64,000 nucleotides of DNA, taken from the NCBI RefSeq assembly GCF_050946405.1, contig NZ_JBMNUS010000013.1:71443-135442 (forward strand). The letters run 5' to 3'. The translations under genes were made by a program, and so were the position numbers. Shown in pieces: positions 19,647-54,331 of the stretch. This stretch comes from Pseudochelatococcus sp. (GTDB lineage: Bacteria > Pseudomonadota > Alphaproteobacteria > Rhizobiales > Beijerinckiaceae). Each line of letters starts with the position of its first letter. Within the stretch, counting starts at the first letter, position 1. The notes below the pieces were generated by a model. The model had not been told where the DNA came from. It did not search any database and saw nothing but the letters and a program-made list of their open reading frames with translations.

Positions 19647-20207
19647 TTGCATTATAGGGGTGCCATGGTTTCCTTGGCATGGCTCCTCCTGACCTACAAG
19701 GTCCCCCCCGATCCCGCCGCGCGGCGGGTCGCGCTCTGGCGCAAGCTGAAGGGCATGGGCGCGGTCTATCTGCAAAACGGCGTCTGCCTGCTGCCGAAGA
19801 CCGACGATCACGCCCGCCGCCTGAAGATGATCGGGAACGACGTCGCCGAAATGGGCGGCGAGGCGGTCATTCTCGAAACCGTGGCGCTGGATCGCGGGCA
19901 GGAGGAAAAGGTCGTCGCGCGATTCAGGGCCGACCGCGACGAGCAATACCGGGAGTTCCTCGGGCGCTGCGCCGATTTCGAGGCGGAAATCGCCAAGGAA
20001 ATCGCCATCGGGAAATTCACCTACGCCGAGCTGGAGGAAGAGGACACCGACCTGAAGAAGCTTCAGGGGTGGCTGGAGAAGATCAGGAAGCTCGACTTCT
20101 ACGGCGCGCTGCTGGCGGAGGAAGCCGCCTCTCGCCTGCGAGCCTGCGAGGCGGTGCTCGAAAGCTATGCGCAGCGCGTCTTCGACGCCCATGACGAGAA
20201 CCGGTAG
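19647..20207 (+). CDS. ChrB N-terminal-domain protein (chromate-resistance regulator-like)
   Basis: WLLLTYKVPPDPAARRVALWRKLKGMGAVYLQNGVCLLPK matches my recollection of the ChrB_N family. An alternative start is the Met at 19665. Confidence 0.65.
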   Translation: MHYRGAMVSLAWLLLTYKVPPDPAARRVALWRKLKGMGAVYLQNGVCLLPKTDDHARRLKMIGNDVAEMGGEAVILETVALDRGQEEKVVARFRADRDEQYREFLGRCADFEAEIAKEIAIGKFTYAELEEEDTDLKKLQGWLEKIRKLDFYGALLAEEAASRLRACEAVLESYAQRVFDAHDENR

Positions 20208-20208
20208 T

Positions 20209-21557: not shown

Positions 21558-21663
21558 ATTTCACGCATTTTCACGGATATTCAAGAGGTGCCTCATCAAT
21601 GGGCAGAGACTGCCTAATGGGTAGTCACATCGGCAAAAATTGCATGATAACGACAAAAATTGC
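21558..21663 (+). promoter_or_regulatory. Low-GC upstream region of the megasynthase gene with two pairs of direct repeats (candidate operator/promoter)
   Basis: ATTTCACG occurs at 21558 and 21568 (10-bp phasing). CAAAAATTGC occurs at 21634 and 21654 (20-bp phasing). This is the only AT-rich patch between the MFS gene and the FAAL domain. Confidence 0.3.
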
Positions 21664-21711
21664 GTCGCGGGGAGAGGCGGGCGCTTGCGTCGTCATCTCC
21701 CATATCGTTAC

Positions 21712-36357: not shown

Positions 36358-38247
36358 ATGTGCGGCATCGTGGGATTTCTCGACCGGGATGGCGCGCCGC
36401 GCCCGCACGATCTGCTGCGCCGCATGGCGGAGGCCGTGCGCCACCGGGGGCCGGATGACGAGGGCTTCTTCACCGGCGACGATATCGGTCTCGGGTTCCG
36501 CCGTCTGTCGATCGTCGATCTGGAAGGCGGGCGGCAGCCGATGTTCGCCGGCGACGGGCGTGTGGCGGCCATCTGCAACGGCGAGATCTACAACCACGCC
36601 GAGCTGCGGGCCGATCTCACGGCGCGCGGCCACCGCTTCCGCACGCGCTGCGACACGGAGGTGATTCCGGCGCTGTTCCTCGAATACGGGCTCGACTTTC
36701 CGCGCCGCATCAATGGCCAGTTCGCCTTTGCCGTCTACGATCGGGAGACGCGCCGGCTGGTGCTGGGGCGCGACCATGTGGGCATCGCGCCGCTGTTTCA
36801 TGCCGAGGTCGGCGGGCTGCTGTTGTTCGGCTCGGAAATCCGGGCGCTGCTGTGCCATCCGGGCCTTGCCCGCGATGTCGACCTGACGGCGCTCGACCAG
36901 ATCCTGACCTTTCCGGGGCTGGTGAGCCCGCGCACGATCCTGGCGAACGTGCGCGCGCTGCCGCCGGGGCATCTGCTGGTGGCCGATCCCGGCCGGCCGC
37001 CGCGCCTCGATCGCTTCTGGGATCTCGATTTTCCGCGCCATGATGAGTTTCCGCGCCATGACGAGATCGGCCCGCCCGGCCGGGCGGACGATTACGTCGA
37101 CGAGCTGGACGCCGCGTTGCGGCAGGCGGTGCGCTACCGGTTGCAGGCCGATGTGCCGGTCGCCGGCTATCTGAGCGGCGGCCTCGACAGTTCGCTCGTC
37201 GCCGCCATCGTCGCCGATCTGGAGCCGGGGGCCACGCGGCATACGTTCTCCATCACCTTTCCCGACAGGGCGATCGACGAGCGCGAGCCGCAGCGCCTCG
37301 TCGCGGCGAGGCTCGGCACCGCCCATCACGAGCGGGAGATCGATCCCGCGCGACTCGCCGCCGGGCTCGACCGCATCGTGGGCTGTGCCGAAGCGCCGCT
37401 GCGCGAATCCTATAACGTATGCTCGCTGCATCTGTCGGGCATGGTGCGCGAGGCCGGGCTCAAGGTGGTGCTCACCGGCGAGGGCGCGGACGAGCTTTTC
37501 GGCGGCTATGTGGGCTACAGGCTCGATGCGGAGCGCGCGCCTGACGCGGACGACCCTTACGATCTCGACGCGCTGATCGAGGGCGAGTGGCGCGAGCGCC
37601 TGTGGGGAGACAGCCGTTTCTTCTACGAGAAGGATTATGGCGCGAGCCGCGACATCCGCCGCGAACTCTACGCGCCGGCGCTGGCCGAGCGCTTCGAGGC
37701 GTTCGACTGCCTCGCCCATCCGCTTGTCGACCGCGCGCAGATCGAGGGCCGGCATCCGTTTCATATCCGCTCGTATCTCGATTTCAAGCTGCGCCTGGCC
37801 GATCATCTGCTGGCGGATCACGGCGACAGGGTGAGCTTCGCCAATTCCGTCGAGGCGCGCTATCCGTTTCTGGACATCGGCGTCATCGACGTGGCGCGCC
37901 GCATCCCGCCCGCCCTCATGGTGCATCAGGGCGAGGAAAAGCATATCCTCAAGCGTCTCGCCCGGCGCTACCTGCCGGCGCAGATCGTGGAGCGCAAGAA
38001 GTTCAGCTTCGTCGCCCAGAGCAGCGCCACGCTGCTGCGCGAGGGCGTGCCGCGCGTGCGCGAGGTGCTCGACGAGGCACGCGTCGCGGCGGACGGCTAC
38101 TTCAGCCCGGAGGCGGTCGCGCATCTCAAGCAGCGGCACGCCGCGCCGGGCGCGGAACTCAACCAGACCTTCGAAGACGACTTCCTGATGGTCGCACTGA
38201 CCTTCGGGATCCTGCGCGAACAATTCGATCTGCCGAAACTCTCATGA
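36358..38247 (+). CDS. Asparagine synthetase B-type glutamine-dependent amidotransferase
   Basis: N-terminal nucleophile MCGIVG, the PP-loop SGGLDSS, and a length of 629 aa. It starts 4 nt after the megasynthase stop codon, and its stop overlaps the next NRPS start (ATGA). Confidence 0.9.
   Translation: MCGIVGFLDRDGAPRPHDLLRRMAEAVRHRGPDDEGFFTGDDIGLGFRRLSIVDLEGGRQPMFAGDGRVAAICNGEIYNHAELRADLTARGHRFRTRCDTEVIPALFLEYGLDFPRRINGQFAFAVYDRETRRLVLGRDHVGIAPLFHAEVGGLLLFGSEIRALLCHPGLARDVDLTALDQILTFPGLVSPRTILANVRALPPGHLLVADPGRPPRLDRFWDLDFPRHDEFPRHDEIGPPGRADDYVDELDAALRQAVRYRLQADVPVAGYLSGGLDSSLVAAIVADLEPGATRHTFSITFPDRAIDEREPQRLVAARLGTAHHEREIDPARLAAGLDRIVGCAEAPLRESYNVCSLHLSGMVREAGLKVVLTGEGADELFGGYVGYRLDAERAPDADDPYDLDALIEGEWRERLWGDSRFFYEKDYGASRDIRRELYAPALAERFEAFDCLAHPLVDRAQIEGRHPFHIRSYLDFKLRLADHLLADHGDRVSFANSVEARYPFLDIGVIDVARRIPPALMVHQGEEKHILKRLARRYLPAQIVERKKFSFVAQSSATLLREGVPRVREVLDEARVAADGYFSPEAVAHLKQRHAAPGAELNQTFEDDFLMVALTFGILREQFDLPKLS
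37030..37065 (+). repeat. In-frame 18-bp tandem duplication (FPRHDE FPRHDE) in the AsnB-like gene
   Basis: tttccgcgccatgatgag / tttccgcgccatgacgag, with one synonymous difference. Confidence 0.9.
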
Positions 38248-41200
38248 CAGGACAAGGCCCCGTGCACTCCACCATGCAGCCTCCCGTGCAGCGTCCCATG
38301 CAGCGTAGCTCCTACGTCGACCGGTTCGAGGAGAATGCACGGGCGCGCCCCGCCGCCGCCGCGCTGGCGACGGCGGCGGGTGAAGTGTCCTACGGCGCGC
38401 TCGACGCGCGGGCGCAGCGCCTCGCCCGGCGGCTCGCGCGGCTGGGGGCGGGGAAGGGCGTCATCGTCGGCCTGTTTCTGGACGCCGACGAAACCTATGT
38501 CGCGGCGCTGCTCGGCGCCGGCAAGACGGGCGGCGCCTTCCTGCCGCTGCCGCCGGACCTGCCGCCGCTGCGCGTCGCCGCCTGCCTCGCCAAAGCGGAA
38601 TGCGGGATCGTCGTGACGCTGGGCCGCCACCGCGCCGCGCTGGATGCGGCGCTGGCTGAAGCCGGCCGATCGGTCGCGGTCATCGAGGCGGATGCGCCGG
38701 ACGATGCCGGCGACGCCGCGCCGGTGGCGCGCGCCATCGGCCCTCACGATCCCTGCTACGTCATGTTCACGTCGGGCTCCACCGGCGCGCCGAAGGCCAT
38801 TCTGGGGCCGCATCGCAGCCTCTCCCACTTCCTGCGCTGGGAGGTCGGCGAGTTCGGGCTGGATGAGACGGTGCGCGGCTCGTGGCTCGCGCCCGTCACC
38901 TTCGATGTCAGCCTGCGCGACATCCTCGTGCCGCTCATGGCCGGGGGCACGCTCTGCATTCCCGATGCCGAGACGCGGATGGTGCCGCGCAAGCTGGTCG
39001 ACTGGCTGGCGCGCGAAAAGGTGACGCTGGTGCATTGCGTGCCGACGGTGCTGCGCCTGATCACGCGCGAGCTGGCCGACCGCGGCGGCGATGCCGGCCT
39101 TGCGGTGCGTCATCTGCTGGTGGCGGGCGAGCCGCTGCTCGGCGCGGATGTCGCGGCCTGGCGGGCGGCGGCAGGCGGGCGCGCCGAGGTCGTGAACCTC
39201 TATGGCCCGTCGGAAACCACGCTGGCGAAGGTGTTCCACCGCATCGGCGAATTGCCCGCCGATCCGCGGCGGGTGCTGCCCATCGGCCGGCCGCTGCCCG
39301 ACACATCGGTGCTCGTTCTTTCCAACGGCCGGCTTTGCGGCCCGCAGCAGATCGGCGAGATCCACATCCGCACCGCCTATCCCTCGCTCGGCTACCTGAA
39401 CGACGCGGCGCTGACGGCGGCGAGCTTCATCCGCAATCCGCTCGGCAACGACGATGCCGACATCGTCTACAAGACCGGCGATCTGGGGCGCTACCTGCCG
39501 GACGGCACCGTCGAATGCCTCGGCCGGCAGGACAATCAGGTCAAGGTCAATGGCGTGCGCATCGAGCTTGCCGAGATCGAGGTCGCGCTGCGCGCCGTCG
39601 CGGGCATCGCCAAAGCGGCGGCGGCGGTGCATGCGGGCGGCGGGGCCGATCCCGTGCTCGTGGGTTATTATGTGCCGGATGCCGGCGCGGCGCCGTCGGC
39701 GGAGGCGATCAAGGCGCAGCTCGGGCGCATCCTGCCGGCGGCCATGCTGCCGCACGTGCTGGTGCGTCTCGACGACCTGCCGCGCACCATCAGCGGCAAG
39801 CTCAATCGCAAGGCGTTGCCGCGCCCGGAGGAGCTGTTCTACGCCGAGCATGCCTATGTGGCGCCGCAGGGCGAGACGGAAGACAAGCTCGCGGCCATCT
39901 GGCGCGAGATCTTCGGCCTGACGCGCGTCGGCGTCGAGACCGCCTTTCACGATTTCGGCGGCGACAGCCTGCGGGCGATCCGCGCCGTGCAGAAGATCTT
40001 CCAGACATTCTCCGTCGAGATCAGCCTGAAGGATTTTCTCGCCGCCGCGACGATCCGGGAACTGGCGCGCCTCGTCGCGGCCGCAGTCCCCGCGCCGGTG
40101 AGCGCCATTGCGCGCGCGGCCGATGCGGCAAGCTATCCCGCCACCCCGGCCCAGAACCGGCTGTGGCGTCTCGACCGGCTCGGCATCGCCCCCACCGCCT
40201 ACAATCTGACGGAAGCGTGCGAGCTGCTGGGGCCGGTGAACGAGGCGGCGCTGGAGCGCGCCTTTCGCGACCTGATCGGCCGCCACGAATCGCTGCGCAC
40301 CACATTCGAGGAGGATGCGGACGGCAACGCGCGCCAGATCGTGCACCATGACACGCCCTGGCGGCTCGAACGCGTCGACCTGCGCCGCCATGCGGAGCCG
40401 GACCGCGCCGCCGCGCTGCTGGCGCGGGACAATGCCGGGCATCGCTTCGACCTGCATCGCGGCCCGCTGCTGCGCGTCGTGCTCGCCCGCCTGCCGGATG
40501 CGGAGGGCGCGGCGCGGCATGTGCTGCTGTTCAACATTCATCACATCGTCGCCGACGTGTGGTCGCTCGGCGTGCTGGTGCGCGAGGTGGCGGCGCTCTA
40601 TGCGGCGGCACTCGCCGGCCGCGACGCCGGCCTTGCGCCGCCGGCGCTGCAATTGCGGGATGTGGCCGTGTGGCAGGCCGGGCGGGCGGCCGCCGGCGCG
40701 CTGGACGGCGACCGCGCCTATTGGCTGGAGCGCTTCTCCGCGCTGCCCGCGCCGCTCGACCTGCCGGCCGACCGGCCGCGCCCGCCGGTGCAGACCTTCA
40801 ACGGCACCACGCGGCGCTTCCGCCTGCCGGCGGACCTGACCGGGCAGCTCGACGGCCTCGCGCGCCGGCACGGCACGACGCGCTTCGCCGTGGTCACGGC
40901 GCTGACGAAGGCGCTGCTGCACCGTTATACCGGACAGACGGATATCGTCGTCGGCAGCCCCGTCGCCGGCCGCACGGATGCGGCGCTGGCGGACCAGATC
41001 GGCTATTACGTCAACACGCTCGCGCTGCGCGACACTGCGGAGGCGGGAGCGCGCTTCGCCGACCTGCTCGCGCGCGTGGCGGCGACGGTGCGCGAGGGGC
41101 TCGCGCATCAGGATTACCCGTTCGACGCGCTGGTGCAGGAACTGCCGCTCGAACGCGACATGAGCCGCTCGCCGCTGTTCGACGTCATGGTCGTCGACCA

Positions 41201-44200
41201 CGCCTTCGAGGATGGCGACCTGCGGCTGGAGGGCGTGCGCGTCATGCCCTTCGGCGACCGGAACGCCTGGAACTTCAGCCGTTTCGATCTCGTCTTCCAT
41301 TTTCAGGACGAGGCGGACGAGCTGGTGCTCGATCTCAACTACAACACCGACCTGTTCGACGATGCGCGCATCCTGCGCATGGGCGCGCATTTTGCGGAGC
41401 TGGCGCGCGCCGCAGCCGGCGACGAGTCGCAGGCTGTCGGGGAACTTAACCTGCTGCCGGCGGACGAAAGCCGGGAACTGGCCGCTTTCACGCACGGGCC
41501 GGTCGTGGCGCGCGATGCGGCGGCGACCATCGTCTCGACCTTCGTGGCGGCGGCGCGCCGTCACGCCGGGCGCCCCGCCGTCATCGATGCCGGAGGGCGC
41601 GTGCTCTCCTATGGCGCGCTCGACGGGGCGACGGACCGGCTGGCGCACGATCTCATCGCGGCGCATGGCGTCGCCCCCGGCGAGCGCGTGGCGGTGTTCG
41701 CGAGGCGCACGCCGGAATCGGTCGCCGCCATGCTCGCGGTGATGAAGGCCGGCGGCGTCTATGTGCCGATCGATCCCGACTATCCGGCCGCGCGGATACG
41801 GTTCATGCTGCGCCAGGCCGGCTGCCGGCTGGCGCTCGCCGACAGCGGGGCGGCCCCGGTCGCGGATGTGCAGGTCGTCGCCGTCGCGCCCCGGCTCGCG
41901 GCCGGCGACGCGGCGCAGCCCGTCGACCGCAGCGGCGCGGGCGAGGCGGCCTATGTGATCTTCACCTCCGGGTCGTCGGGCGAGCCGAAGGGGGTGGCGG
42001 TCGCCCACGGCGGTTTCGTCAACATGTCGTCGGGGCAGATCGCCCTTTTCGGACTCACGCCCGAGGACCGGGTGTTGCAGTTCGCCTCGCCGTCCTTCGA
42101 CGCCTCGCTCGCCAACATGTTCATGGCGCTGTTCAGCGGCGCGGCGGTGGTGCTGCCGTCTGCCGGCGACATCAAGAACACGGCCGATTTCCTGGCGCTG
42201 CTGGCGCGGAGCGGCACCACGGCGCTCACCCTGCCGCCGACCTATCTGCGCGCGCTGCGGCGGGCGGAACTGGCCGGGGTGAGGGTGCTCATCACGGCGG
42301 GCGAGGAAGCGCCGGCCGCCGACCTGCTCCATTACGCGCAGCGGCTCGCCGCCTTCAACGCCTACGGCCCGACGGAGTTTTCGGTCTGCGCCACGGTGCA
42401 TGAGGTCAGCGAGCGAGACCGCGACCGCCTGCGCCTGCCCATCGGCCGGCCGTTGCCGAATACGAGCGTGCATGTTCTCGATGCCGCGCTCAAGCCCGTC
42501 CCGGTCGGGATCGCGGGGGAAATCTGGCTCGGCGGCAGCGGGCTCGCGCTCGGCTACGAGGGCGATGCGGCGCAGACCGCCGCGCGCTTCGTCACGCATC
42601 CGCACACGGGCGAGCGCCTCTACCGCACCGGCGATCGCGGCGCGTGGCGCGAGGACGGCGCGGTCGATTTCCTCGGCCGCGCCGACGATCAGGTGAAGGT
42701 GGCGGGCCACCGCATCGAGCCGGGCGAGATCGAGGCGGCGATGCGCGCGGTGCCGGGCGTGCGCGACGCCCATGTCGCCACAGTGGCGCGGGCCGACGGC
42801 TCCGCCGCGCTCGCCGCCTGGTACTGCGCGGACGAGCGCGTGGAGCTGTGGCCTTCGGTGGCGGAGTTCTACGTCTACGACGACATCGCCTATGGCAGCA
42901 TGGCCGCCGACGAGGGGCGCAACCGGCGCTACCGCGAGGCTTTCGCGCGCCACCTGCCCGGCAGGACGGTGGTGGATATCGGCACCGGGCCGGTGGCTAT
43001 CCTCGCGCGCCTCGCCATCGAGGCCGGCGCGCGCAAGGTCTACGCCATCGACAGGCTGGAGGCGACGGCGCGCAAGGCGCGGGAGACCGTGGCGGCGCTC
43101 GGCCTCGACGACCGCATCACGGTGATCCACGGCGACGCCCTGACCCTGGAGCTGCCCGAGACGGTGGATTTCTGCATCTCCGAGATCGTCGGCGCCATCG
43201 GCGGGGCGGAGGGCGCGGCGCGCATCATCAACGGCGCGCGCCGCTACCTGAAGGACCCGGCGGCCATGCTGCCGCAGTTCAGCGACACGCGCATCGCGGC
43301 GCTGGCGCTGCCTCACGACCGGCTCGCGCCGGGCTTTTCGGACATCGCGGCGCATTACGTCGACAAGATCTTCGCGGAGGTCGGCCAGCCGTTCGACCTG
43401 CGCCTGTGCCTCAAGAACCTGCCGCGCGAGGCCATCGTCTCCACCGACGCGCCGTTCGAATATCTGGACTACACGCGCGAGGTGCCGGTCGAGGCGACGC
43501 ACACGGTCGAACTCGTCGTCACGCGGGACAGCGAGATCACCGGCTTCCTCGTCTGGCTGCGGCTCGGCGTCGATGCGGATGCGGTGGTGGATATTCTCGA
43601 CAACCCCGGAAGCTGGCTGCCGGTGTGGCTGCCGGCCTTCGCCGTGCCGGTCGCGGTGGCGGCGGGCGACCGCATCGCCATCACCATCGCGCGGCGGCTT
43701 TGCGGCAACGGTTTCAACGTCGACTTCTTCCTCGACGGCACGGTGACGCGGGCGGCCGGCGAGGCGGTGCCGTTCGCCTGCCGCAGCGCGCATTTCGGCG
43801 ACGGCTTCCGCCGCACGCCCTTCCATGCGGGGCTGTTCGCGGGGGAAGGGGTGCCGCGCTTCGAGGCGCCGACGCCGGCCGTGGTGCGCCGTCACCTGCT
43901 GGGCGCGGTGCCGGCGCATGCCGTTCCGTCCTTCCTCGTGCCGCTCGACAGGCTGCCGGTGACGATCAACGGCAAGATCGATCGCGCCGCCCTGCCGGCC
44001 CCCGGCGATGTCGCGGAAGGAGCGCGCCGGGGAGAGGCGCTTGCGCCGCAGACGCCGCTGGAGCGGCAGGTGCTGGATGTGTGGCGCGAGATCATGAGCC
44101 GGCCGGACATGACGGCGGGCGATGATTTTTTCAGCATGGGCGGCGATTCCATCCGCGCCATCCAGATCGTCTCGCGCCTGCGCCAGCTCGGCTGGAAAGC

Positions 44201-45683
44201 CGAAATCCGCGACGTGTTCCAGAATCCGACCGTCGCGCAGTTTGCGGGCGTTCTCGCGCCGGTACGCGCGCGGGCCGATCAGGGCGCGGTTGTCGGCCCC
44301 GCGCCGCTGACGCCGGTGCAGCGCTGGTTTCTCGAAACGAGCGTGCGGCCGGACCATTTCAACCAGGCGGTGGTGTTGCATGCGGAGGCGATCGACGCGG
44401 CCGCGGCCCAGGCGGCGCTCGAAGCCGTCTGGCGTCATCACGACGCCCTGCGCGCGGTCTTCACCCATGATGGCGGCGGCTGGTCGCAGTCCCTGCTCCC
44501 GCCCGGCGAGCCGCCCCGCGTGGTGGAGATCGCAGCCGATGATCCGGCCGCCTTCGCGGAGGCGGCGCGCGCCGTACAGGCGGGTTTCCGCATCGACCGG
44601 GGGCCGCTGCTCGTGGCGGCGCTGCTGGCGCGCGGCGCGGCGACGACGGAGGATGCAGGGGGAAGCCGGCTGCTGCTCTGCGCGCACCATCTCGTGATGG
44701 ATATCGTGTCGTGGGGCATCCTGATCGAGGACTTCACGGCGGCCTACCTGGCTCATCAGGACGGCACGACGCCGCGCCTGCCGGACAAGACGGATTCCTG
44801 CCGCGACCATGCGCGGGCGCTGGAATCGATCGCGGCGCGGGTGGACTGGACCGGCCGGCTCGGCTACTGGCGCGCGCTGGAGCGGGATGCGCCGCTGCTG
44901 CCGGGCTTCGCCGGCCCGTTCCGCGTCGCGGATGCGTTCACCCTCCAGGGTGTGCTGGCCGCCGGGGTGACGGCGGCGCTGCTCGGCCCGGCCAATCACG
45001 CCTATACGACGGGAACGGAAGACCTGCTGCTCGCCGCTCTTGCTCTCGCGATCGAGCGGCATTTCAGCCGCGCCGGGGCGCTGGTGACGGTCGAGAGCCA
45101 CGGCCGCGAATACCCGCTGGCCGATCTTCTCGGCGATGGCGAGGCGCCCGACGTCACCCGCACGGTCGGCTGGTTCACGGCCTTCCATCCGTTCCGGCTG
45201 GAGGCGGCGTCCGGGATCGGCGAGACCGTGCGCGGCGTCAAGGAGGCGCTGCGCCGCGTGCCGGATCGCGGCTGGAGCCATCTCCTGATGCGGACGCTGC
45301 CGGCGGAATGGGTGGTGCCGGACCTGCGGCCGCAGATCGGCTTCAACTATCTCGGTCAGATGCGTTCGGCCCCCGCCGGCGTCGGCCCCTTCGCCGTCGA
45401 CTGGGACGCGCCCGGCGGCGCGGTGGCGGCGGATGCGCACCGTCCGCATGCGATCGACGTGCTGGCCATGGCGGTGGACGGGGAGCTGCGCGTCAGCCTC
45501 GACGTCGACGAGGCGGCGATCGGACGGGAGGCGGGCGAGGTGCTGCTGCGCCGCTTCCTCGCGGCGATCGAGGAAGTCGTCGCCCATTGCCTCGCGCGGG
45601 AAACCGCCGAGCTTACCCCGTCCGACATGACCTACGACAAGCTGTCGCTGGACGATCTCGATCGTCTGCTGCTGGCCGAATGA
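38244..45683 (+). CDS. NRPS: A-PCP-C-A(embedded methyltransferase)-PCP-E
   Basis: The start is the ATG at 38244 ([12 protein letters not shown]...), within ORF 37587..45683. Motifs are listed in the domain features below. Confidence 0.95.
   Translation: [2479 protein letters not shown]
38300..39830 (+). other. Domain: adenylation A3 (by-eye code DVRHLALLAK, not assignable)
   Basis: [67 protein letters not shown]. Confidence 0.85.
39870..40080 (+). other. Domain: PCP3
   Basis: [11 protein letters not shown]; Ser codon at 39966..39968. Confidence 0.9.
40130..41440 (+). other. Domain: condensation C5
   Basis: [16 protein letters not shown] at the start; HHIVADVWS at 40539. Confidence 0.85.
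41520..42830 (+). other. Domain: adenylation A4, N-terminal part through motif A8 (by-eye code DAATIAAVCK, Phe/Tyr-like)
   Basis: [69 protein letters not shown]. Confidence 0.85.
42831..43880 (+). other. Embedded class I SAM-methyltransferase domain with protein-arginine-methyltransferase (PRMT)-like motifs, inserted between A8 and A9 of A4
   Basis: [81 protein letters not shown]. The A domain resumes with [21 protein letters not shown]. Confidence 0.7.
43881..44000 (+). other. Domain: adenylation A4, C-terminal part (A9-A10)
   Basis: [30 protein letters not shown]. Confidence 0.8.
44050..44260 (+). other. Domain: PCP4
   Basis: [11 protein letters not shown]; Ser codon at 44148..44150. The GGDSI form is the one usually seen upstream of E domains. 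Confidence 0.9.
44290..45683 (+). other. Domain: epimerization (E), C-terminal, with a COM-donor-like tail
   Basis: E motifs [18 protein letters not shown] (44685), [38 protein letters not shown]. The tail reads [22 protein letters not shown]. Confidence 0.85.
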
Positions 45684-45723: not shown

Positions 45724-47364
45724 ATGAAGCTTCTGGATCTGCTGCGCAAGGAAGCGGGCATCGGCGGGCCGCGCTTCATCGGTTTCGCTGCCCTGTCGGG
45801 CCTGTCCAACGCCGCCATTCTGGCCATCATCAACCTTGCCGCCAGCAATGCGAGCGACAAGGGGGAGAATTTTCACAATCTGATCCTGTTCGGTCTCGCC
45901 ATCGCCGTCTTCGTCGTCACGCAGCGCGCGCTGATGATCGAGGTCTGCGAGAAGGTGGAGTTGCTGATCGACCGCATCCGGGTGCGGCTGATCGAGCGGG
46001 CGCGGCGGGCGGAGTTTCTGGAGCTGGAGGAGATCGGCCGTTCGGAGATCTACGCCTGCCTCACCCGCGAGACGCAGATCCTGTCGCAGGCGGCGCCCAA
46101 TGTCGTGATCGGGTTGCAGTCGGCTATCCTCGTGGTGTTCACGCTGCTTTACATGGCCTTTCTGTCGCAGACGGCCTTCTGGCTGTCGGTCGGCTTCACC
46201 GTCGTCGGCGCGATGATCCATCTGTCGCGCTCGGCGGAGGTCAAGCGCGAGCTGCGCGCCGCCTTCGAATGCGAGAACGCGCTGATCGAAAGCCTCGGCG
46301 ACATGCTCGACGGCTTCAAGGAAGTGAAGATGAGCACCGGCCGCTCCGCCGACATCGCGCACAGGATCGCGGAGATTTCGGCGCGGGTCGGCCGGATGCG
46401 AATCAGGACGCAGACGCTCTACGCGACGGATTTCGTGATGTCGCAGGTCACGTTCTTCATCATGACCGGCATCATGGTGTTCGTCGTGCCGACCATCAGC
46501 GACGCCTATATCGAGGTGGTGGTGATGACGACCACCGCGAGCCTGTTCCTGATCGGCCCGGTGTCGAACGTGGTCGGCAGCCTGCCCATCTTCTCCAACG
46601 CCAACGCCGCGGCGGAGAACGTGATGGCGCTGGAGGAGCGGCTCGGGCGCGTCAACGGCGAGGTGCGGGACGCCGGCGGCGGCTTCCCCGACTTCCGGCG
46701 GATCGCGCTCCAGGGAGCGAGTTTTTCGCACCGGCCTTCCGGCGGCGACAAGGGGTTCGCGGTCGGTCCGGTCGATTTCACGGTGGAGCGGGGAAAGACG
46801 ATCTTCCTCACCGGCGGCAACGGCTCCGGCAAGACCACGTTCATCCGCCTGCTGGTGGGGCTCTATCCGCCGGGCGGCGGCGTCATCCGCGTGGACGGCG
46901 CGCCCGTCGGCCCGGCCAATGCCGCCGATTACCGCAACCTGTTCTCCGTGATCTTCTCGGACAACCATCTGTTCACGGAGCTTTACGGCATCCCCTCCAT
47001 TGATGCCGATCAGGCGGCGGAATTGTTCGCGCTGCTCGAAATGCAGCACAAATCGCAGATCGCCGGCCGTCGCTTCACCACGGTGCGGCTTTCCGGCGGA
47101 CAGCGCAAGCGGCTCGCCCTCATCGCCGCCCTGCTGGAGAAACGGCCCGTCTGCGTGTTCGACGAATGGGCGGCGGATCAGGACCCGTATTTCCGCGAGA
47201 AATTCTACAGGATTATACTTCCGCGCCTGAAGGAAAAAGGCGTCACCGTCATCGCGATTACTCACGATGACGCCTATTTTGACATGGCCGATGTCCACAT
47301 CCACATGGACAATGGGCATCTGACCGTCGTGAAGGACGAATCCGTTCTTGAGGGAACCACCTGA
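45724..47364 (+). CDS. Cyclic-peptide export ABC transporter (SyrD/PvdE-type fused permease-ATPase)
   Basis: N-terminal MKLLDLLRKEAG..FIGFAALSGLSNAAILAIINLAA, Walker A GGNGSGKTT, LSGGQRKRLAL, and Walker B VCVFDEWAADQD. Confidence 0.9.
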   Translation: MKLLDLLRKEAGIGGPRFIGFAALSGLSNAAILAIINLAASNASDKGENFHNLILFGLAIAVFVVTQRALMIEVCEKVELLIDRIRVRLIERARRAEFLELEEIGRSEIYACLTRETQILSQAAPNVVIGLQSAILVVFTLLYMAFLSQTAFWLSVGFTVVGAMIHLSRSAEVKRELRAAFECENALIESLGDMLDGFKEVKMSTGRSADIAHRIAEISARVGRMRIRTQTLYATDFVMSQVTFFIMTGIMVFVVPTISDAYIEVVVMTTTASLFLIGPVSNVVGSLPIFSNANAAAENVMALEERLGRVNGEVRDAGGGFPDFRRIALQGASFSHRPSGGDKGFAVGPVDFTVERGKTIFLTGGNGSGKTTFIRLLVGLYPPGGGVIRVDGAPVGPANAADYRNLFSVIFSDNHLFTELYGIPSIDADQAAELFALLEMQHKSQIAGRRFTTVRLSGGQRKRLALIAALLEKRPVCVFDEWAADQDPYFREKFYRIILPRLKEKGVTVIAITHDDAYFDMADVHIHMDNGHLTVVKDESVLEGTT

Positions 47365-47401: not shown

Positions 47402-50400
47402 ATGACGATCATGCTCGGGACATCGCAATGGCGTGAGGGCGGCGGAAGGTGGCTGCGCCGGTTCGCGCTCGGATCGGCCGCCGCGGCGGCGGTGACGGGA
47501 ACGGCGCTGGCCGCCGATGTTTCGCAGGTGGGGCCGGTCTTGCAGGGGTTTCTCGATGCGACGGCCTCGCAAGGCACGCTTCAGGGGGTCGCGATCGGCG
47601 TCGACCTGCCGGGTGGCGAAGGGAGCTGGTTCGGCGGGGGCGGCTATCGCGACATCGCCCGCACCGAGCCGCTCGGCGCCGACCTGCAATTCCGCATCGG
47701 CAGCGCGTCGAAGACCTTCACCGGCACGGCGGTGTTGCAGCAGGTGGATCAGGGGCTGATCGGGCTCGGCGATTCGATCGACAAATGGGTGCCCGATCTC
47801 AACGTGCCCGGCGGCGACCGGATCACCGTCGAGAACCTGCTCAGCATGACGAGCGGCATTCCCGACTATCTGGGCGCGGAGTCGATCCATAGCCCCGGTA
47901 ATACGATATTGCAGGAATGGGCCAACTTCCACGGCCCGGCCGGTTCCCACGGCAACGCCGACTACACGCCCGAGCAGCTCGTGGGCGCGGTGGTCGACAG
48001 TCTCGGGGCCAGCTTCGGGCCGGTCGGCGAGATGTTCTATTCCAACACCAATTTCGCCCTGCTCGGCATCATCGCGCAACGCGCGTCGTGCCTCGGAGCC
48101 TCCGGTTGCCGGACGATCGACGAAATGGTCAACGGCATCGCCGCTTCCATGGGGCTTGCCGACACGGTCTTTCCCGCTTCGTCCGCCTTCACGGCGCCTT
48201 ATGCGGAAACGGCGCAGGTCGTCATCGGCGACGCTTCCTATTACGGCGTTCCGCCCGGCAGCAGCTTCGACATGACCTTCCTCGATCCGCGCGTGCCGTG
48301 GGCGGCGGGCGCGGTGTTGTCGACGCCGGCGGATGAACTGAAATGGGTGCGCCAGCTCGCGACCAACAGCGACGGGCTGCTGTCGGCGCAGACGCAGGCC
48401 GAGCGTGTCGGCGTGGCGGAGCCCGGCGAGGTGAGCGGCGTGCCGGTGTTCTACGGCCTCGCCCTCTATGCCATGCCCGGCGTGGGGAGCGGCACCTATC
48501 TGACCGGCCACAGCGGGCTGATCGGCGGCGACACGGCGTCGCTGTTCTACAATCCGGCGCTGGACGTGGCCTATGCCGTCAATTTTCTCGGCTATCAGGC
48601 CAATGCATTGCCATGGTTTCCGCTCTACGGCGCCTCCGACGCCCTGGGCCGTTACGTTTATGCGGGAAGGGAAGGGGGCAATTACAGCTCCGTCATGATC
48701 CTGTGGGCGCTCGACCGCAACGTCACGCTGGCGCTCACCGCGCAGGGCTCGTGCAGCTACGGGGCCGGCCCGCAGGGCGCGGGCGGCGACAGGACCTGTG
48801 CGGGCGACAGCGTGCGCACGACGCCGATCGCCGTCACTGATGGCACGCTGACCATCGCCCCGTCCCACCTGACCATGGGCAATTACTACATCGATCCCGT
48901 CACCGGCGCCGTTTCGCTGGCGCAGGTGGCGCGGCCGAGCCTTGCGATGTTCGGCAGCCATTCCGCCGCGGTGGCGTTGCAGGGCGGGGCCTCGCTCGTG
49001 CTGCCGCAAGGGGCGACGGCCGAGCTGTGGGGCACGAACTCCGCCACCGTCAGCATGACCGGCGCGGACAATGCCGCGCACATCGGCGGCACGCTTCTCA
49101 CCTACGGCGTGGATTCGGTGGCGGTGCGGATTATGGGCGACCGCAACCGGGTGAACGTGCTGCCGACCGGCGCTGTGGTCGGCGCCAGCGCGCCCGCCAT
49201 CGCCATGAGCGGCCGCGACAACGCCGCCGTCATCGGCGGCAGCGTGACGACCTACGGCCACGGCATCGAGCGGATCGCCATCGCGGGCGAAGGCGGCGGC
49301 AATCGCGTGGAGGTGGAGCCCACCGGCTATGTCGGCGGCGACATCGCGCTCGCCGGCGACGGCAACCGGGTGAGGGTCGACGGCATCGTCTCGGGCCATG
49401 TGCCGATGGCGGGAGGCGACGCGGTGCTGAGCGGCGAGGGCGTGATCACCGGCGTCGTGGGCGGCGGCGGCACGGTGGCGCCGGGCAATGGCATCGGCAC
49501 GCTTACCGTCGGCGGCTATGCCGGGCGCGATACCCGGCTGATGATCGAGACCGGGCCGGGCGGCGCGAGCGACCTGCTCGCGGTGGCTGGCCCCGCTTCC
49601 CTGACCGGCGGCAGCCTGCATGTCACGCCGCCGCCGGCGGCGGCGAGCGGCATCTACAATGTCCTCTCCGCCGGCGCGGTGGAAGGGGCGTTCGCCGCCG
49701 CCACCACCGGCGGCCGCGTGGGCCTTGGCGTGCAATACACGCCGACGGCGGTCAATGTCGCGGCGGTCAACCCCTTCCTGTTCGATGCGGCGGTGCGCAC
49801 CGGCGCGGCCGATACCCTGCGCAATCTCGACCTGTTCGAGGAGCGGGCGGCGGCGTTCGCCGCTTCAGCTACTTCCGCCGCGCCGGCCGGTGCGGCACGT
49901 GGGCCTGCCGCCGGCGCGCAGGCCGAAAACCTGAAGGAATGGTTCTCGCGGCGCGGCGCGTCGGCGGCGGGTTCCCGCGCGGCGGGGGCGGCGGTCTGGG
50001 CTTCGGCCTACGGCGCCTTCGACCGCCATGCCGCGGATGGGCCGGTGCCGACCATCGCGTCGGAGGGCGGCGGCGTCGCGGTGGGCGCCGATGCCGAACC
50101 CCTGCCCGGCCTGCTTGTGGGCGCGATGGGCGCCTACAGCCGCACCCAGGCGACGACGCCGGCGAATCCGGGAATGAAGTTCTCCTCCGACGCCTACAAG
50201 GCCGGCGTCTACGGCGCTTACGAGGCCGGGCGCGTGCTGTTCAGCGCCTCGCTGCTCGCCGGCCGGGGCGACGACACCACCACGCGCGCGGTGGAATCGG
50301 GAGCGCTCGCCGGTGTGGCGCAGGGCAGCTTCGACGATTTCCGCCTCGCCGCCCGCGTGGGGGCGCGCGCGACCTTCGATGTGGGCGCGGGCGTGCGCCT

Positions 50401-50836
50401 GACGCCGCGCGCCGCCGTCACGCTGCTGCGGATCGAGCAGGACGCCCATCGCGAGATCGGCGGCATTCCGGGCTACGGCTTCGGCATCGGCATCGGGGCA
50501 AGCACGTATGAACAGGTGCGGTCCGAGGCATCCCTTGCGGTTGCGAAGACTTTCGACGTTTCCCTGGGCGGCTGGAGCGGCCGGCTCACGGGCGAGCTTC
50601 GCGCCGGCCTCGCGCGCGACATCGTGCTGAAGAGCGCGAACGGATGGGTCGACGTGCCCGGTTTCAGCCCCGTCGTCACCGGCGGCTTCAAGCGGAACGC
50701 CTGGGTGATGCCGGTCGGCGGCCGGCTGGAGCTGGCGGCGAGCGACTCGCTCTCCGTCTTCGCCGCCTACGATGGCGCGTTCTCCAGCCTCGGTGGCGTC
50801 AATACGGTGCGCGGCGGCTTACACTGGCGTTTCTGA
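47402..50836 (+). CDS. Autotransporter with a beta-lactamase-fold (S12 / class C / family VIII esterase-like) serine hydrolase passenger
   Basis: Signal peptide ...AAAVTGTALAADV. SxxK = SASK (Ser at 47702), YSN (48038), HSG (48509). Passenger repeats such as GNGIGTLTVGGYAG lie near 49490. The C-terminal beta-barrel (about 49990-50836) ends in GGLHWRF. Confidence 0.85.
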   Translation: MTIMLGTSQWREGGGRWLRRFALGSAAAAAVTGTALAADVSQVGPVLQGFLDATASQGTLQGVAIGVDLPGGEGSWFGGGGYRDIARTEPLGADLQFRIGSASKTFTGTAVLQQVDQGLIGLGDSIDKWVPDLNVPGGDRITVENLLSMTSGIPDYLGAESIHSPGNTILQEWANFHGPAGSHGNADYTPEQLVGAVVDSLGASFGPVGEMFYSNTNFALLGIIAQRASCLGASGCRTIDEMVNGIAASMGLADTVFPASSAFTAPYAETAQVVIGDASYYGVPPGSSFDMTFLDPRVPWAAGAVLSTPADELKWVRQLATNSDGLLSAQTQAERVGVAEPGEVSGVPVFYGLALYAMPGVGSGTYLTGHSGLIGGDTASLFYNPALDVAYAVNFLGYQANALPWFPLYGASDALGRYVYAGREGGNYSSVMILWALDRNVTLALTAQGSCSYGAGPQGAGGDRTCAGDSVRTTPIAVTDGTLTIAPSHLTMGNYYIDPVTGAVSLAQVARPSLAMFGSHSAAVALQGGASLVLPQGATAELWGTNSATVSMTGADNAAHIGGTLLTYGVDSVAVRIMGDRNRVNVLPTGAVVGASAPAIAMSGRDNAAVIGGSVTTYGHGIERIAIAGEGGGNRVEVEPTGYVGGDIALAGDGNRVRVDGIVSGHVPMAGGDAVLSGEGVITGVVGGGGTVAPGNGIGTLTVGGYAGRDTRLMIETGPGGASDLLAVAGPASLTGGSLHVTPPPAAASGIYNVLSAGAVEGAFAAATTGGRVGLGVQYTPTAVNVAAVNPFLFDAAVRTGAADTLRNLDLFEERAAAFAASATSAAPAGAARGPAAGAQAENLKEWFSRRGASAAGSRAAGAAVWASAYGAFDRHAADGPVPTIASEGGGVAVGADAEPLPGLLVGAMGAYSRTQATTPANPGMKFSSDAYKAGVYGAYEAGRVLFSASLLAGRGDDTTTRAVESGALAGVAQGSFDDFRLAARVGARATFDVGAGVRLTPRAAVTLLRIEQDAHREIGGIPGYGFGIGIGASTYEQVRSEASLAVAKTFDVSLGGWSGRLTGELRAGLARDIVLKSANGWVDVPGFSPVVTGGFKRNAWVMPVGGRLELAASDSLSVFAAYDGAFSSLGGVNTVRGGLHWRF

Positions 50837-54318: not shown

Positions 54319-54331
54319 TCCGGCCGGGCAC

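What the first reader, a model, noticed from the sequence alone, without database searches (positions are those of the whole stretch)
42831..43880. Adenylation domain interrupted by a PRMT-like methyltransferase
**Seen in sequence.**
- A4 runs normally through motif A8 (GRADDQVKVAGHRIEPGEIE) and the following strand (LAAWYCAD).
- It is then interrupted for about 350 codons.
- It resumes with A9/A10 (VPAHAVPSFLVPLDRLPVTINGKIDR).
- The insert does not look like the usual NRPS N-methyltransferase (no VLEIGxGxG-type context).
- Instead it lines up by eye with protein arginine methyltransferases at several points.
  - Pre-motif: FYVYDDIAYGSMAADEGRNRRYREAF, against PRMT1 [28 protein letters not shown].
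  - Motif I plus post-I: VVDIGTGPVAILARLAIEAGARKVYAIDR, against [27 protein letters not shown].
  - Motif II / double-E region: ITVIHGDALTLELPETVDFCISEIVG, against [27 protein letters not shown].
- The A4 pocket reads DAATIAAVCK, close to the Phe/Tyr-type codes (DAWTIAAICK) and not an Arg code.

**Established knowledge.**
- Interrupted A domains with M inserts between a8 and a9 are known for backbone N-, O- and S-methylation.
- I am not aware of a described PRMT-fold insert.

**Inference.**
- This is a new class of embedded tailoring domain.
- Its target atom (side-chain N/O or backbone N) is unknown.
Basis: partly seen in the sequence, partly recalled or inferred. Interest (0 to 1): 0.8.

Follow-up and report, generated by a model that had tools for sequence, protein, structure and literature searches.

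The report
Known tyrosine O-methyltransferase domain inside NRPS
The 350-residue insert in this peptide-synthetase adenylation domain really does have the fold of protein arginine methyltransferases, but it is an ordinary member of an already catalogued, widespread family of embedded domains linked to O-methyl-tyrosine residues, not a new class.

Summary

The inference of a new class does not hold. The insert carries the size and three of the four motifs, plus the fourth with one substitution, of the "type III M domain, Ms(O,Tyr,a8-a9)" of family 2b interrupted A domains (Lundy et al. 2020, PMC8341866).
- It is 46-48% identical to the equivalent domain in the Tistrella mobilis plasmid pTM3, the didemnin producer (N,O-dimethyl-Tyr).
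- The same holds for an NRPS of Nostoc ATCC 53789, the cryptophycin producer (O-methyl-D-Tyr).
- A 2023 paper already noted the resemblance to arginine methyltransferases.

The family is common: 168 species-representative genomes and at least 932 clusters at 50% identity. Most host A domains have Tyr-type pockets, as here (DAATIAAVC).

Most likely function: SAM-dependent O-methylation of PCP-bound tyrosine in a C-A(M)-T-E module, giving O-methyl-D-Tyr in an uncharacterised lipopeptide. The chemistry is inferred, not shown.

The parts
38241..45683 (+). NRPS gene, domain order A-T-C-A(M)-T-E. A gene caller on an identical contig starts it 21 nt further in, near 38262.
   Evidence: ORF list, translation, Pfam Condensation/AMP-binding/PP-binding/Methyltransf_25, motif map, called genes on contig L084.
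40131..41480 (+). Condensation domain of the tyrosine module.
   Evidence: Pfam PF00668 residues 631-1080 of the protein counted from 38241; HHIVADV motif at residue 767.
41508..42830 (+). N-terminal part of the interrupted adenylation domain (motifs a1-a8), pocket code DAATIAAVC. Ends with the strand LAAWYCA.
   Evidence: Pfam AMP-binding 1103-1439; A3, A4, A5, A7 and A8 motifs; code by alignment. PDB A domains, including the interrupted TioS 5wmm, align only to this part (query 6-438).
42831..43880 (+). Embedded methyltransferase: type III M domain (Tyr O-MT type) with the PRMT fold, 350 aa.
   Evidence: PRMT homology and fold. (type III motifs). (48% identity to the Tistrella pTM3 domain, 46% to the Nostoc ATCC 53789 NRPS).
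42969..42998 (+). SAM-binding motif I, VVDIGTGPVA (type III motif i, GxGxxA).
   Evidence: Regex match. G51 and G53 are 100% conserved in 81 family members. Aligns with PRMT6 VLDVGAGTGIL.
43131..43214 (+). Type III motif ii, GDALTLELPETVDFCISEIVGAI, running into the double-E loop (SEIVGAIGGAEG; E118 and E127).
   Evidence: Regex. E118 conserved in 81/81 and E127 in 79/81. Both align with the PRMT6 and PRMT1 double-E glutamates.
43368..43403 (+). Type III motif iii, IFAEVGQPFDLR. It lies where PRMTs carry the dimerisation arm (inference).
   Evidence: Regex. F181, G185, F188, D189 and R191 are 98-100% conserved. Position relative to the PRMT6 alignment. Helix 171-184 in the model.
43614..43634 (+). 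Type III motif iv, WLPVWLP (published form WLPV(F/Y)(F/L)P). The Trp sits where the PRMT THW loop lies, but T-H is not kept.
   Evidence: Regex: strict form fails, form relaxed at one residue matches. W262 conserved in 80/81 and P264 in 81/81; positions 260-261 vary. The correspondence with THW is by spacing only (inference).
43881..44000 (+). C-terminal remainder of the adenylation domain (a9/a10: LP..VPSFLVPLDRLPVTINGKIDR).
   Evidence: Translation; A10 NGKIDR at residue 1910. The same resumption is seen in most related loci.
44067..44252 (+). Carrier (T/PCP) domain, GGDSI serine.
   Evidence: Pfam PP-binding 1943-2004; motif at 1966.
44298..45680 (+). C-terminal condensation-fold domain, read as an epimerisation domain (HHLVMDIVSW).
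   Evidence: Second Pfam Condensation stretch; motif in the translation. The E-type assignment is inferred from the HHxxxDxVSW signature. The Nostoc NRPS of the same architecture has HHLAVDGVS.

Best explanation
The insert is a type III methylation domain (Ms(O,Tyr,a8-a9)), which makes A4 a family 2b interrupted adenylation domain.

Proposed mechanism:
1. The A domain, with a Tyr-type pocket (DAATIAAVC), adenylates L-tyrosine or a close para-substituted Phe analogue and loads it on the following carrier domain.
2. The embedded SAM-dependent methyltransferase sits in the loop between a8 and a9 of the mobile C-terminal A subdomain. It methylates the phenolic oxygen of the carrier-bound residue.
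3. The upstream C domain condenses the residue and the downstream E domain epimerises it. The module therefore contributes O-methyl-D-tyrosine.

The product would be a beta-amino-fatty-acyl lipopeptide made by the hybrid PKS/NRPS cluster at about 20-60 kb.

The domain descends from the same stock as protein arginine methyltransferases. It keeps their two-domain fold, SAM site and double-E loop.

Shown here: homology, fold, motifs, architecture and the pocket correlation. Inferred: the substrate, the atom methylated, the timing (aminoacyl-S-T versus peptidyl-S-T) and the epimerisation.
For: **Family motifs and size.** Lundy et al. 2020 give 350 +/- 10 aa and four motifs. The window has 350 aa, VVDIGTGPVA, GDALTLELPETVDFCISEIVGAI, IFAEVGQPFDLR and WLPVWLP.

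**Similarity to domains in producers of O-Me-Tyr compounds.**
- tblastn gives 48.4% identity over 99% of the insert to Tistrella mobilis plasmid pTM3. There the domain is followed by a canonical N-MT and the host code is DASTLAAVC. This is the DidJ arrangement A8-MIII-MI-A9.
- It gives 46% identity to the 1943-aa NRPS lying between a PKS and a large synthetase gene annotated as an SDR-family oxidoreductase on a plasmid of Nostoc sp. ATCC 53789. That NRPS has A(M)-T-E downstream of the insert, as here. The strain makes cryptophycins, whose unit B is 3-chloro-O-methyl-D-tyrosine (PMC6835634).

**Host pockets.** Among 70 related loci from species-representative genomes that could be read, 14 have DASTVAAVC, 12 DASTIAAVC and 11 DAATIAAVC. 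DASTVAAVCK is the Stachelhaus Tyr code (established knowledge).

**Intact catalytic apparatus.** G51, G53, E118, R30, Y34, Y71 and D189 are 100% conserved. D74 is the acidic post-I residue (E or D in 81/81). E127 is conserved in 79/81.

**Not the other insert types.**
- BLASTP against the type I N-MT domains of L060, L065 and L068 gives E > 0.3, and no type I or II motifs are present.
- TioS 5wmm aligns only with the A part.

**Abundance.** 168 relatives were found in 185,579 species genomes. An exhaustive search found 932 clusters at 50% identity with E <= 1e-30, and most of the best 150 are embedded in longer, multidomain-sized proteins.
Against: - No type III M domain has been assayed in vitro in any paper I could find. 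The O-methyl-Tyr assignment rests on product structures of a few pathways.
- The window's pocket has Ala, not Ser, at position 239, so the exact substrate (Tyr, Phe or another para-substituted Phe) is not fixed.
- A minority of family members sit in A domains with clearly non-Tyr codes, such as DVEDLGCIS and DIWHFGLII. The family is therefore not strictly tied to Tyr.
- Both PRMT guanidinium-binding glutamates are conserved, which phenol O-methylation does not obviously require.
- Motif iv has Trp where the published motif allows Phe or Tyr.
- The product of this cluster is unknown.
Confidence: 0.8

Rival explanations
1. One reading: a new class of embedded PRMT-type domain that methylates a nitrogen nucleophile (a guanidino or amino side chain, for example p-amino-Phe) through the retained double-E loop.
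For: - Double-E glutamates E118 and E127 are conserved in 81/81 and 79/81 members, with PRMT spacing.
- The full PRMT fold is present.
- Stand-alone Streptomyces homologues (35% identity) include one next to an arginine deiminase-family gene.
- Ala239 deepens the pocket.
Against: - The domain is not new.
- Domains 46-48% identical sit in the Tistrella pTM3 and Nostoc ATCC 53789 synthetases, whose products carry O-methyl-Tyr.
- The pocket is not Arg-like.
- No p-aminophenylalanine, hydroxylase or halogenase genes appear among the annotated ORFs of the window.
Confidence: 0.05
2. The domain is the same type III O-methyltransferase but acts on a different phenolic or aromatic residue than plain L-Tyr (for example a modified Tyr). 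Alternatively it acts after condensation on the peptidyl intermediate.
For: - The code DAATIAAVC differs from the Tyr codes DAST[IV]AAVC at position 239.
- PchF methylates after condensation.
Against: - No tailoring genes for modified Tyr lie in the cluster.
- The DAAT code is also found in Pseudoalteromonas and Komarekiella members, which otherwise have the same interrupted a8-a9/a10 layout.
- ColG, a characterised a8-a9 interrupted A domain, acts on aminoacyl-S-T.
Confidence: 0.1
3. Backbone N-methyltransferase of the usual NRPS kind (type I, TioS/PchF-like).
For: Same insertion site between a8 and a9.
Against: - No similarity to type I domains (BLASTP E > 0.3; the type III profile scores about 0 bits on them).
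- Type I motifs are absent.
- 5wmm aligns only with the A core.
- In family 5b proteins the two types occur side by side, which implies different jobs.
Confidence: 0.02
4. An inactive relic that only serves as a structural spacer.
For: None specific. Motif iv deviates by one residue.
Against: All SAM-binding and family-invariant residues are intact. The domain shows 83% amino-acid identity to Methylobacterium orthologues and 77% to Xanthobacter orthologues over the full length. The model is confidently folded.
Confidence: 0.03

Closest known systems
Type III M domain, Ms(O,Tyr,a8-a9), of family 2b/5b interrupted adenylation domains (ThxA2 module 6, DidJ, VatN; Lundy, Mori and Garneau-Tsodikova 2020, PMC8341866). 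By my reading of locus L082, also the Nostoc ATCC 53789 NRPS taken here to be cryptophycin CrpC, and LynB3/LynB5-OMT (PMC10127204).
   Same: - Insertion point (after L-A-A-W/Y/F-xxx, before a9), length 350 aa and motifs i-iii exactly; motif iv with one conservative change.
- 46-48% identity to the Tistrella and Nostoc domains.
- Tyr-type host pocket.
- A(M)-T-E order downstream of the insert identical to the Nostoc NRPS.
   Different: - Trp instead of Phe/Tyr in motif iv.
- Ala instead of Ser at pocket position 239.
- The host cluster is an uncharacterised FAAL-PKS-aminotransferase/NRPS lipopeptide pathway. Its nearest relatives are in Methylobacterium and Xanthobacter.
Protein arginine methyltransferases, type I/II/III PRMTs (PRMT6, CARM1, PRMT2, PRMT1).
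   Same: - N-terminal M..D..R...Y helix, motif I and an acidic post-I residue.
- Double-E loop with identical E-x8-E spacing.
- A Trp where the THW loop lies, and an FD-containing segment where the dimerisation arm lies.
   Different: - Only about 20-27% identity.
- Embedded in an NRPS A domain rather than free-standing.
- The T-H of the THW loop is not kept.
- The substrate is inferred to be a carrier-bound tyrosine phenol, not a protein arginine guanidinium.
- Oligomeric state unknown.
Type I backbone N-methyltransferase inserts (TioS A4-M-A4, PDB 5wmm; PchF; McyA).
   Same: Same a8-a9 insertion site, class I SAM-dependent Rossmann core, and action within an NRPS module.
   Different: Different family. 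There is no detectable sequence similarity beyond the glycine loop, a different C-terminal half, different motifs (VLEIGxGxG, NELxxFRY) and a different atom methylated.
Type II Ser/Thr O-methyltransferase inserts (KtzH, ColG).
   Same: Side-chain O-methylation by a domain inserted between a8 and a9.
   Different: None of the five type II motifs is present. Type II domains are about 290 aa, and their substrate is Ser/Thr.

Membership tests
Type III M domain / family 2b interrupted A domain | M domain inserted between A motifs a8 and a9, after the boundary strand L(V/A/I)(A/G)(Y/F)xxx | tested here: met
   a8 GRADDQVKVAGHRI at residue 1479 and A10 NGKIDR at 1910. The boundary is LAAWYCA, with Trp in place of Tyr/Phe. 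Boundary definition.
Type III M domain / family 2b interrupted A domain | Length 350 +/- 10 residues | tested here: met
   350 residues between LAAWYCA and the a9 region. Size from Table 1 of PMC8341866.
Type III M domain / family 2b interrupted A domain | Motif i V(V/L)(E/D)(I/V)GxGxxA; motif ii GDxxxxx(L/I)PEx(A/V)(D/E)xC(V/I)SEI(V/I/F)GxI; motif iii (I/V)FxxxxxxFDLR | tested here: met
   Regex matches at insert residues 47, 101 and 180.
Type III M domain / family 2b interrupted A domain | Motif iv WLPV(F/Y)(F/L)P | tested here: inconclusive
   The window has WLPVWLP. The strict regex fails on one residue (Trp for Phe/Tyr), and the relaxed form matches. W262 and P264 are conserved in 80/81 and 81/81 members.
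Type III M domain / family 2b interrupted A domain | Homology to the domains of named O-Me-Tyr pathways | tested here: met
   48.4% identity over 99% coverage to the Tistrella mobilis pTM3 domain, and 46.0% over 95% to the Nostoc sp. ATCC 53789 NRPS. Both carry all four motifs.
Type III M domain / family 2b interrupted A domain | Host A domain predicted to activate Tyr or an analogue | tested here: met
   The code is DAATIAAVC. It is shared with 10 related loci and lies one residue from DASTIAAVC (12 loci); DASTVAAVC (14 loci) differs at two positions.
Type III M domain / family 2b interrupted A domain | Catalyses O-methylation of the Tyr side chain | not testable with these tools
   Needs biochemistry or the product structure. 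Even for the family this is inferred from natural-product structures.
Protein arginine methyltransferase (PRMT) superfamily | Rossmann SAM domain plus C-terminal beta-barrel | tested here: met
   [not shown]
Protein arginine methyltransferase (PRMT) superfamily | Double-E loop (two Glu nine positions apart, E-x8-E) | tested here: met
E118 is conserved in 81/81 and E127 in 79/81.
Protein arginine methyltransferase (PRMT) superfamily | THW loop | tested here: inconclusive
   Only the Trp is kept (G-S-W in the window; Y/H then C/S then W in the family). The correspondence rests on spacing from the aligned strand (LdGfLvWl against LHGFAVWF), not on a residue-level structural alignment.
Protein arginine methyltransferase (PRMT) superfamily | Dimerisation arm and obligate dimer | not testable with these tools
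   A conserved helix and FDLR segment occupies the arm's position. No multimer prediction was possible.
Protein arginine methyltransferase (PRMT) superfamily | Methylates arginine guanidino nitrogen in proteins | not testable with these tools
   The context argues against it: the domain is embedded in an NRPS A domain with an aromatic pocket, and related pathways give O-Me-Tyr. The domain is therefore filed as a PRMT-fold homologue, not as a PRMT.
Type I backbone N-MT insert (TioS/PchF type) | Motifs GW.S.Y, VLE(I/L)GxGxG and NE(L/M)x(K/R/Q)(F/Y/H)RY; homology to TioS M | tested here: not met
   All three motifs are absent. BLASTP against three type I domains gives E > 0.3. 5wmm aligns only to query residues 6-438.
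Type II Ser/Thr O-MT insert (KtzH/ColG type) | Motifs EIFxxxxYxxxG, DVGx(N/H)xG(L/M)F, FT(Y/F)YP.., (I/V)DLLK.D, W..I.Q...EVH | tested here: not met
   None of the five motifs is present.

The most novel reading that the evidence does not exclude
Type III M domains keep an essentially complete PRMT catalytic core: both double-E glutamates, the Trp of the THW loop, and the segment that forms the PRMT dimerisation arm. Two less ordinary readings are therefore not excluded. In one, this member, with its deeper Ala239 pocket, methylates a nitrogen nucleophile rather than a phenol. In the other, the domain dimerises through the arm as PRMTs must, forcing two NRPS modules together. No structure or in vitro assay of any type III domain turned up to rule either out. 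No PDB chain matches both the A core and this insert, and literature searches found no assay.
Probability: 0.07. Interest if true: 0.6.

Novelty: new member of a known kind. Interest (0 to 1): 0.2.

Why it matters
For the scan, this removes a false "new class" flag. The domain type was catalogued in 2020 and is present in hundreds of synthetases.

What remains of modest value:
- The PRMT ancestry of the NRPS tyrosine O-methyltransferase insert is barely mentioned in the literature (one sentence in a 2023 paper, none in the 2020 catalogue). Here it is shown at the level of the whole fold, the double-E loop and possibly the dimerisation arm. The PRMT alignment places the ribose-binding acidic residue at E/D74 (end of strand 2) rather than at the Asp of motif ii suggested in 2020. 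It also points to E118 and E127 as candidate catalytic residues for mutagenesis.
- The cluster itself predicts an undescribed lipopeptide containing O-methyl-D-Tyr. It comprises a FAAL-PKS-aminotransferase starter, an A-less C-T module next to an AsnB-like gene, and Thr-like, unknown, Tyr-like and Asp-like A domains. Its nearest relatives are in Methylobacterium and Xanthobacter genomes.

Tried and rejected
- **Word-indexed protein search.** It returned only 23 hits and at first suggested a rare family. The exhaustive profile search and the genome scan showed it is common, so rarity was rejected.
- **Literature searches for pocket codes.** DAATIAAVCK, DASTIAAVCK and DASTVAAVCK returned nothing. 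The Tyr assignment of DASTVAAVCK therefore rests on my knowledge of Stachelhaus et al. 1999.
- **Aligning PRMT1 to the family HMM.** The local alignment stopped at profile position 177, so it did not resolve the THW loop. PDB profile hits to PRMT1 and PRMT8 extend to positions 326-332, but those alignments were not printed.
- It reproduced the published nine pocket residues DAWTIAAIC but missed Lys517. Only nine positions are reported.
- **MbtH-like partner.** A regex search of all six frames found none. This is weak negative evidence.
- **Source organism.** The look-up of encoding contigs found identical contigs only in unnamed SRA-run assemblies. The Methylobacterium-like origin is inferred from the 83% best hits.
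- **Other insert types.** Type I N-MT and type II Ser/Thr O-MT were considered and rejected.
- **Substrate-supply genes.** I looked for p-aminophenylalanine, hydroxylase or halogenase genes that might change the substrate. The 1-20 kb flank is an unrelated transport and oxidoreductase region.
Full report
**1. What is in the sequence**

The + strand ORF 37587-45683 contains an NRPS gene. Its likely start is MTGQG at 38241; a gene caller on an identical contig puts it 21 nt further in.

Pfam finds two AMP-binding, two PP-binding and two Condensation stretches, plus a methyltransferase hit at residues 1577-1671. A core-motif scan gives the order A-T-C-A-T-(C-like). In the second A domain, A3, A4 (FDASLAN), A5, A7 and A8 (GRADDQVKVAGHRI, residue 1479) are separated from A10 (NGKIDR, residue 1910) by about 430 residues.

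The translation shows the strand LAAWYCA, then 350 residues encoded by 42831-43880, then VVRRHLLGAVPAHAVPSFLVPLDRLPVTINGKIDR. The last domain carries HHLVMDIVSW, which I read as an epimerisation-domain signature (inference).

**2. Is the insert PRMT-like?**

Yes, on sequence and on predicted fold.

- Against all PDB sequences, the insert's best hits are exclusively protein arginine methyltransferases: PRMT6 2e-17, CARM1 6e-13, PRMT7 and PRMT1 3e-8.
- A profile of the insert and 15 homologues raises this to 3e-30. Alignments reach profile positions 326-332 for PRMT1 and PRMT8, well into the C-terminal half.
- AlphaFold2 with that alignment gives a confident model: pLDDT 91.4, pTM 0.90, a Rossmann half followed by an all-beta half.
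- Foldseek against the PDB returns only PRMT6, CARM1 and an Arabidopsis PRMT4-type enzyme among the top 50, at E about 1e-23 and TM 0.70 over about 330 columns.

The PRMT hallmarks are retained:
- the N-terminal M..D..R...Y segment;
- motif I (VVDIGTGPVA, with G51 and G53 invariant);
- an acidic residue at the end of strand 2 (D74; Glu in 71 of 81 family members);
- the double-E loop, SEIVGAIGGAE, which aligns residue for residue with PRMT6 SEWMGYGLLHE. E118 is conserved in 81/81 members and E127 in 79/81.

The THW loop is kept only as its Trp: W262 in 80/81, with variable residues before it. That correspondence rests on spacing, not on a superposition.

**3. Is it a new class?**

No. Lundy, Mori and Garneau-Tsodikova (RSC Chem Biol 2020, PMC8341866) sorted bacterial interrupted A domains into seven families and six M-domain types.

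Their type III, Ms(O,Tyr,a8-a9), is 350 +/- 10 residues long and sits between a8 and a9 after a strand L(V/A/I)(A/G)(Y/F)xxx. It has these four motifs:
- V(V/L)(E/D)(I/V)GxGxxA
- GDxxxxx(L/I)PEx(A/V)(D/E)xC(V/I)SEI(V/I/F)GxI
- (I/V)FxxxxxxFDLR
- WLPV(F/Y)(F/L)P

The window has 350 residues, VVDIGTGPVA, GDALTLELPETVDFCISEIVGAI, IFAEVGQPFDLR and WLPVWLP. That is three exact matches and one with Trp for Phe/Tyr.

The authors counted 79 single-M members (family 2b) and nine N,O-double-M members (family 5b). Their representatives are ThxA2 (thaxteramide), DidJ (didemnin) and VatN (vatiamide), each tied to O-methylated Tyr in the product.

That paper never mentions PRMTs. The lyngbyapeptin paper does say that the embedded Tyr O-MT domain of LynB3 shows about 30% similarity to arginine methyltransferases, citing PRMT7 and PRMT5 structures (PMC10127204).

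**4. Direct comparison with named systems**

tblastn of the insert against plasmid records hits two producers.

- *Tistrella mobilis* KA081020-065 pTM3: 48.4% identity, 99% coverage. The domain carries all four motifs, its host pocket reads DASTLAAVC, and it is followed by a canonical N-MT (GWNSSYTG, NELxxFRY), then A10 and T. This is the DidJ arrangement.
- A plasmid of *Nostoc* sp. ATCC 53789: 46.0% identity, 95% coverage. The domain lies in a 1943-aa NRPS between a type I PKS gene and a large synthetase gene annotated as an SDR-family oxidoreductase, and is followed by A10-T-E. This strain makes cryptophycins from crpA/B (PKS) and crpC/D (NRPS), and their unit B is 3-chloro-O-methyl-D-tyrosine (PMC6835634). 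Equating this NRPS with CrpC is my inference from strain and gene order.

The window's A(M)-T-E order downstream of the insert therefore has an exact architectural precedent that yields O-methyl-D-Tyr.

**5. How common, and in what hosts?**

One scan of species-representative genomes found 168 loci encoding a relative.
- The nearest are Methylobacterium sp. EM32 and M. frigidaeris (83%), Xanthobacter (75-77%) and a Bradyrhizobium MAG (63%).
- At 39-59% identity come members of Acidobacteriota, Cyanobacteria, Chloroflexota, Gemmatimonadota, Bacteroidota, Gamma- and Betaproteobacteria and others.

The exhaustive profile search of 1.84 billion representatives found 932 clusters at E <= 1e-30. The best 150 all score above 527 bits and are mostly internal to proteins of 1,000-7,000 residues. 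The profile includes a little A-domain flank, so the looser counts are inflated.

In most of the 80 retrieved loci the domain is flanked by an ..LVAY.. strand and by LP.YM.P...PLT.NGK.DR. Host pocket codes could be read in 70 loci:
- 14 DASTVAAVC, 12 DASTIAAVC and 11 DAATIAAVC, plus several one-off variants of these;
- a minority differ (DVEDLGCIS, DIWHFGLII, DAVVVAAVY) or belong to hosts lacking Asp235.

Three loci (L060, L065, L068) have a type I N-MT straight after the type III domain. The window insert shows no significant similarity to those N-MTs (BLASTP E > 0.3), against E about 1e-103 to the type III domains of the same proteins.

The solved interrupted A domain TioS (5wmm) aligns only with the A core, query residues 6-438. 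None of the type I or type II motifs is present.

**6. Context**

The window's 1-20 kb region encodes an ABC uptake system, FAD and GMC oxidoreductases, two aldehyde dehydrogenases and an isocitrate/isopropylmalate-type dehydrogenase. This is unrelated to the cluster.

The cluster runs from about 20.1 to 60.4 kb:
- MFS transporter, 20167-21429.
- A 4904-aa hybrid, 21640-36354. Order: FAAL-ACP-KS-AT-ACP-aminotransferase-C-T-C-A(DFWSVGMVH, Thr-like)-T-C. No A-domain motif lies between the C at residue about 2396 and the T at 2874.
- An AsnB-type asparagine synthase, 36358-38247.
- The A(DVRHLALLA)-T-C-A(M)-T-E gene discussed here.
- An ABC exporter.
- A beta-lactamase-fold/autotransporter protein.
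- DUF697 and SPFH proteins.
- A C-A(DLTKLGHIG, Asp-like)-T-TE gene, 53873-58387.
- An alpha/beta hydrolase.

(Searches cover this gene list.) This predicts a beta-amino-fatty-acyl peptide. I found no described product.

**7. Mechanism, and what is shown versus inferred**

Shown:
- homology to type III M domains and to PRMTs;
- the predicted fold;
- intact SAM-binding and family-invariant residues;
- the insertion site and module order;
- the correlation of the family with Tyr-type pockets.

Inferred from the literature on related pathways, and from characterised a8-a9 interrupted A domains such as ColG, which acts on aminoacyl-S-T:
1. A4 loads Tyr on T4.
2. The embedded domain transfers a methyl group from SAM to the phenolic oxygen.
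3. C4 condenses and the E domain epimerises the residue.
4. The next module adds an Asp-like residue and the TE releases the product.

The role of the two conserved glutamates in phenol methylation is unknown. They could act as a base, or they could bind the alpha-amino group. I found no in vitro assay or structure for any type III domain. This is the main reason confidence stops at about 0.8.

**8. Verdict**

The PRMT resemblance is real and extends to the whole fold. The claim of a new class is not supported.

This is a new, ordinary member of a known and widespread family, in an uncharacterised cluster. Interest is low (0.2). The residual value lies in the little-appreciated PRMT ancestry of NRPS tyrosine O-methyltransferase inserts and in the residues it nominates for mechanistic work.

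Noticed in passing
window 21640-36354 and 36358-38247: The 4904-aa hybrid megasynthase reads FAAL-ACP-KS-AT-ACP-aminotransferase-C-T-C-A-T-C. It has a C-T pair with no adenylation-domain motifs between C (residue about 2396) and T (residue 2874). An AsnB-type asparagine synthase gene is wedged between the two megasynthase genes. It may supply or amidate the residue of the A-less module.
   Followed up: partly
loci L058, L077, L079, L051 (DVEDLGCIS/DVEDIGCIS); L078, L064; L062, L073, L039 (DIWHFGLII/DIFHFGLII); L013, L017 (DAV[IV]VAA[IV]Y): Some type III M domains sit in otherwise normal a8-a9 interrupted A domains whose pocket codes are clearly not Tyr-type. The family may therefore methylate other residues in some pathways.
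   Followed up: no
loci L020, L022, L045, L046, L054, L042, L056: In these loci (Acidobacteriota, Acidimicrobiia, Thiomargarita) the M domain lies in a host that lacks Asp235. The a8 motif was not found, and the A10 is degenerate (for example EGAIDR, with the catalytic Lys lost). The upstream junction is conserved as ..RFQQLQEP.. in five of them (L020, L022, L045, L046, L054). This is a different, undescribed architecture.
   Followed up: no
L083 7923-9026 (Streptomyces sp. F2 plasmid pFRL4) and hits H4-H9: Stand-alone homologues are about 35% identical over 95% of the insert and are annotated only as class I SAM-dependent methyltransferases. On pFRL4 the gene lies beside an arginine deiminase-family gene and a nitroreductase gene. 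This hints at free-arginine chemistry in the nearest non-NRPS relatives.
   Followed up: partly
window 47402-50836: A 1144-aa protein inside the cluster combines a beta-lactamase/esterase-fold domain with an autotransporter beta-domain, next to an ABC exporter (45724-47364).
   Followed up: no
window 43368-43403 (insert residues 176-191): Type III motif iii (IFxxxxxxFDLR; Y176, F181, G185, F188, D189 and R191 are 98-100% conserved) lies where PRMTs have the dimerisation arm. It resembles PRMT1 VYGFDMS. This raises the question of whether these NRPS inserts dimerise.
   Followed up: partly
window 38241-39900 (first A domain of the NRPS): The pocket code DVRHLALLA does not match any specificity code I know, and the residue it activates is unpredicted.
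   Followed up: no
whole window: No MbtH-like ORF was found by a signature regex in six frames. Several characterised interrupted A domains need such a partner.
   Followed up: partly
P0004 (Nostoc sp. WHI, 439 aa): This is a free-standing version of the same methyltransferase, fused to a TubC-type N-terminal docking domain. It suggests a trans-acting form that docks on an assembly line.
   Followed up: no
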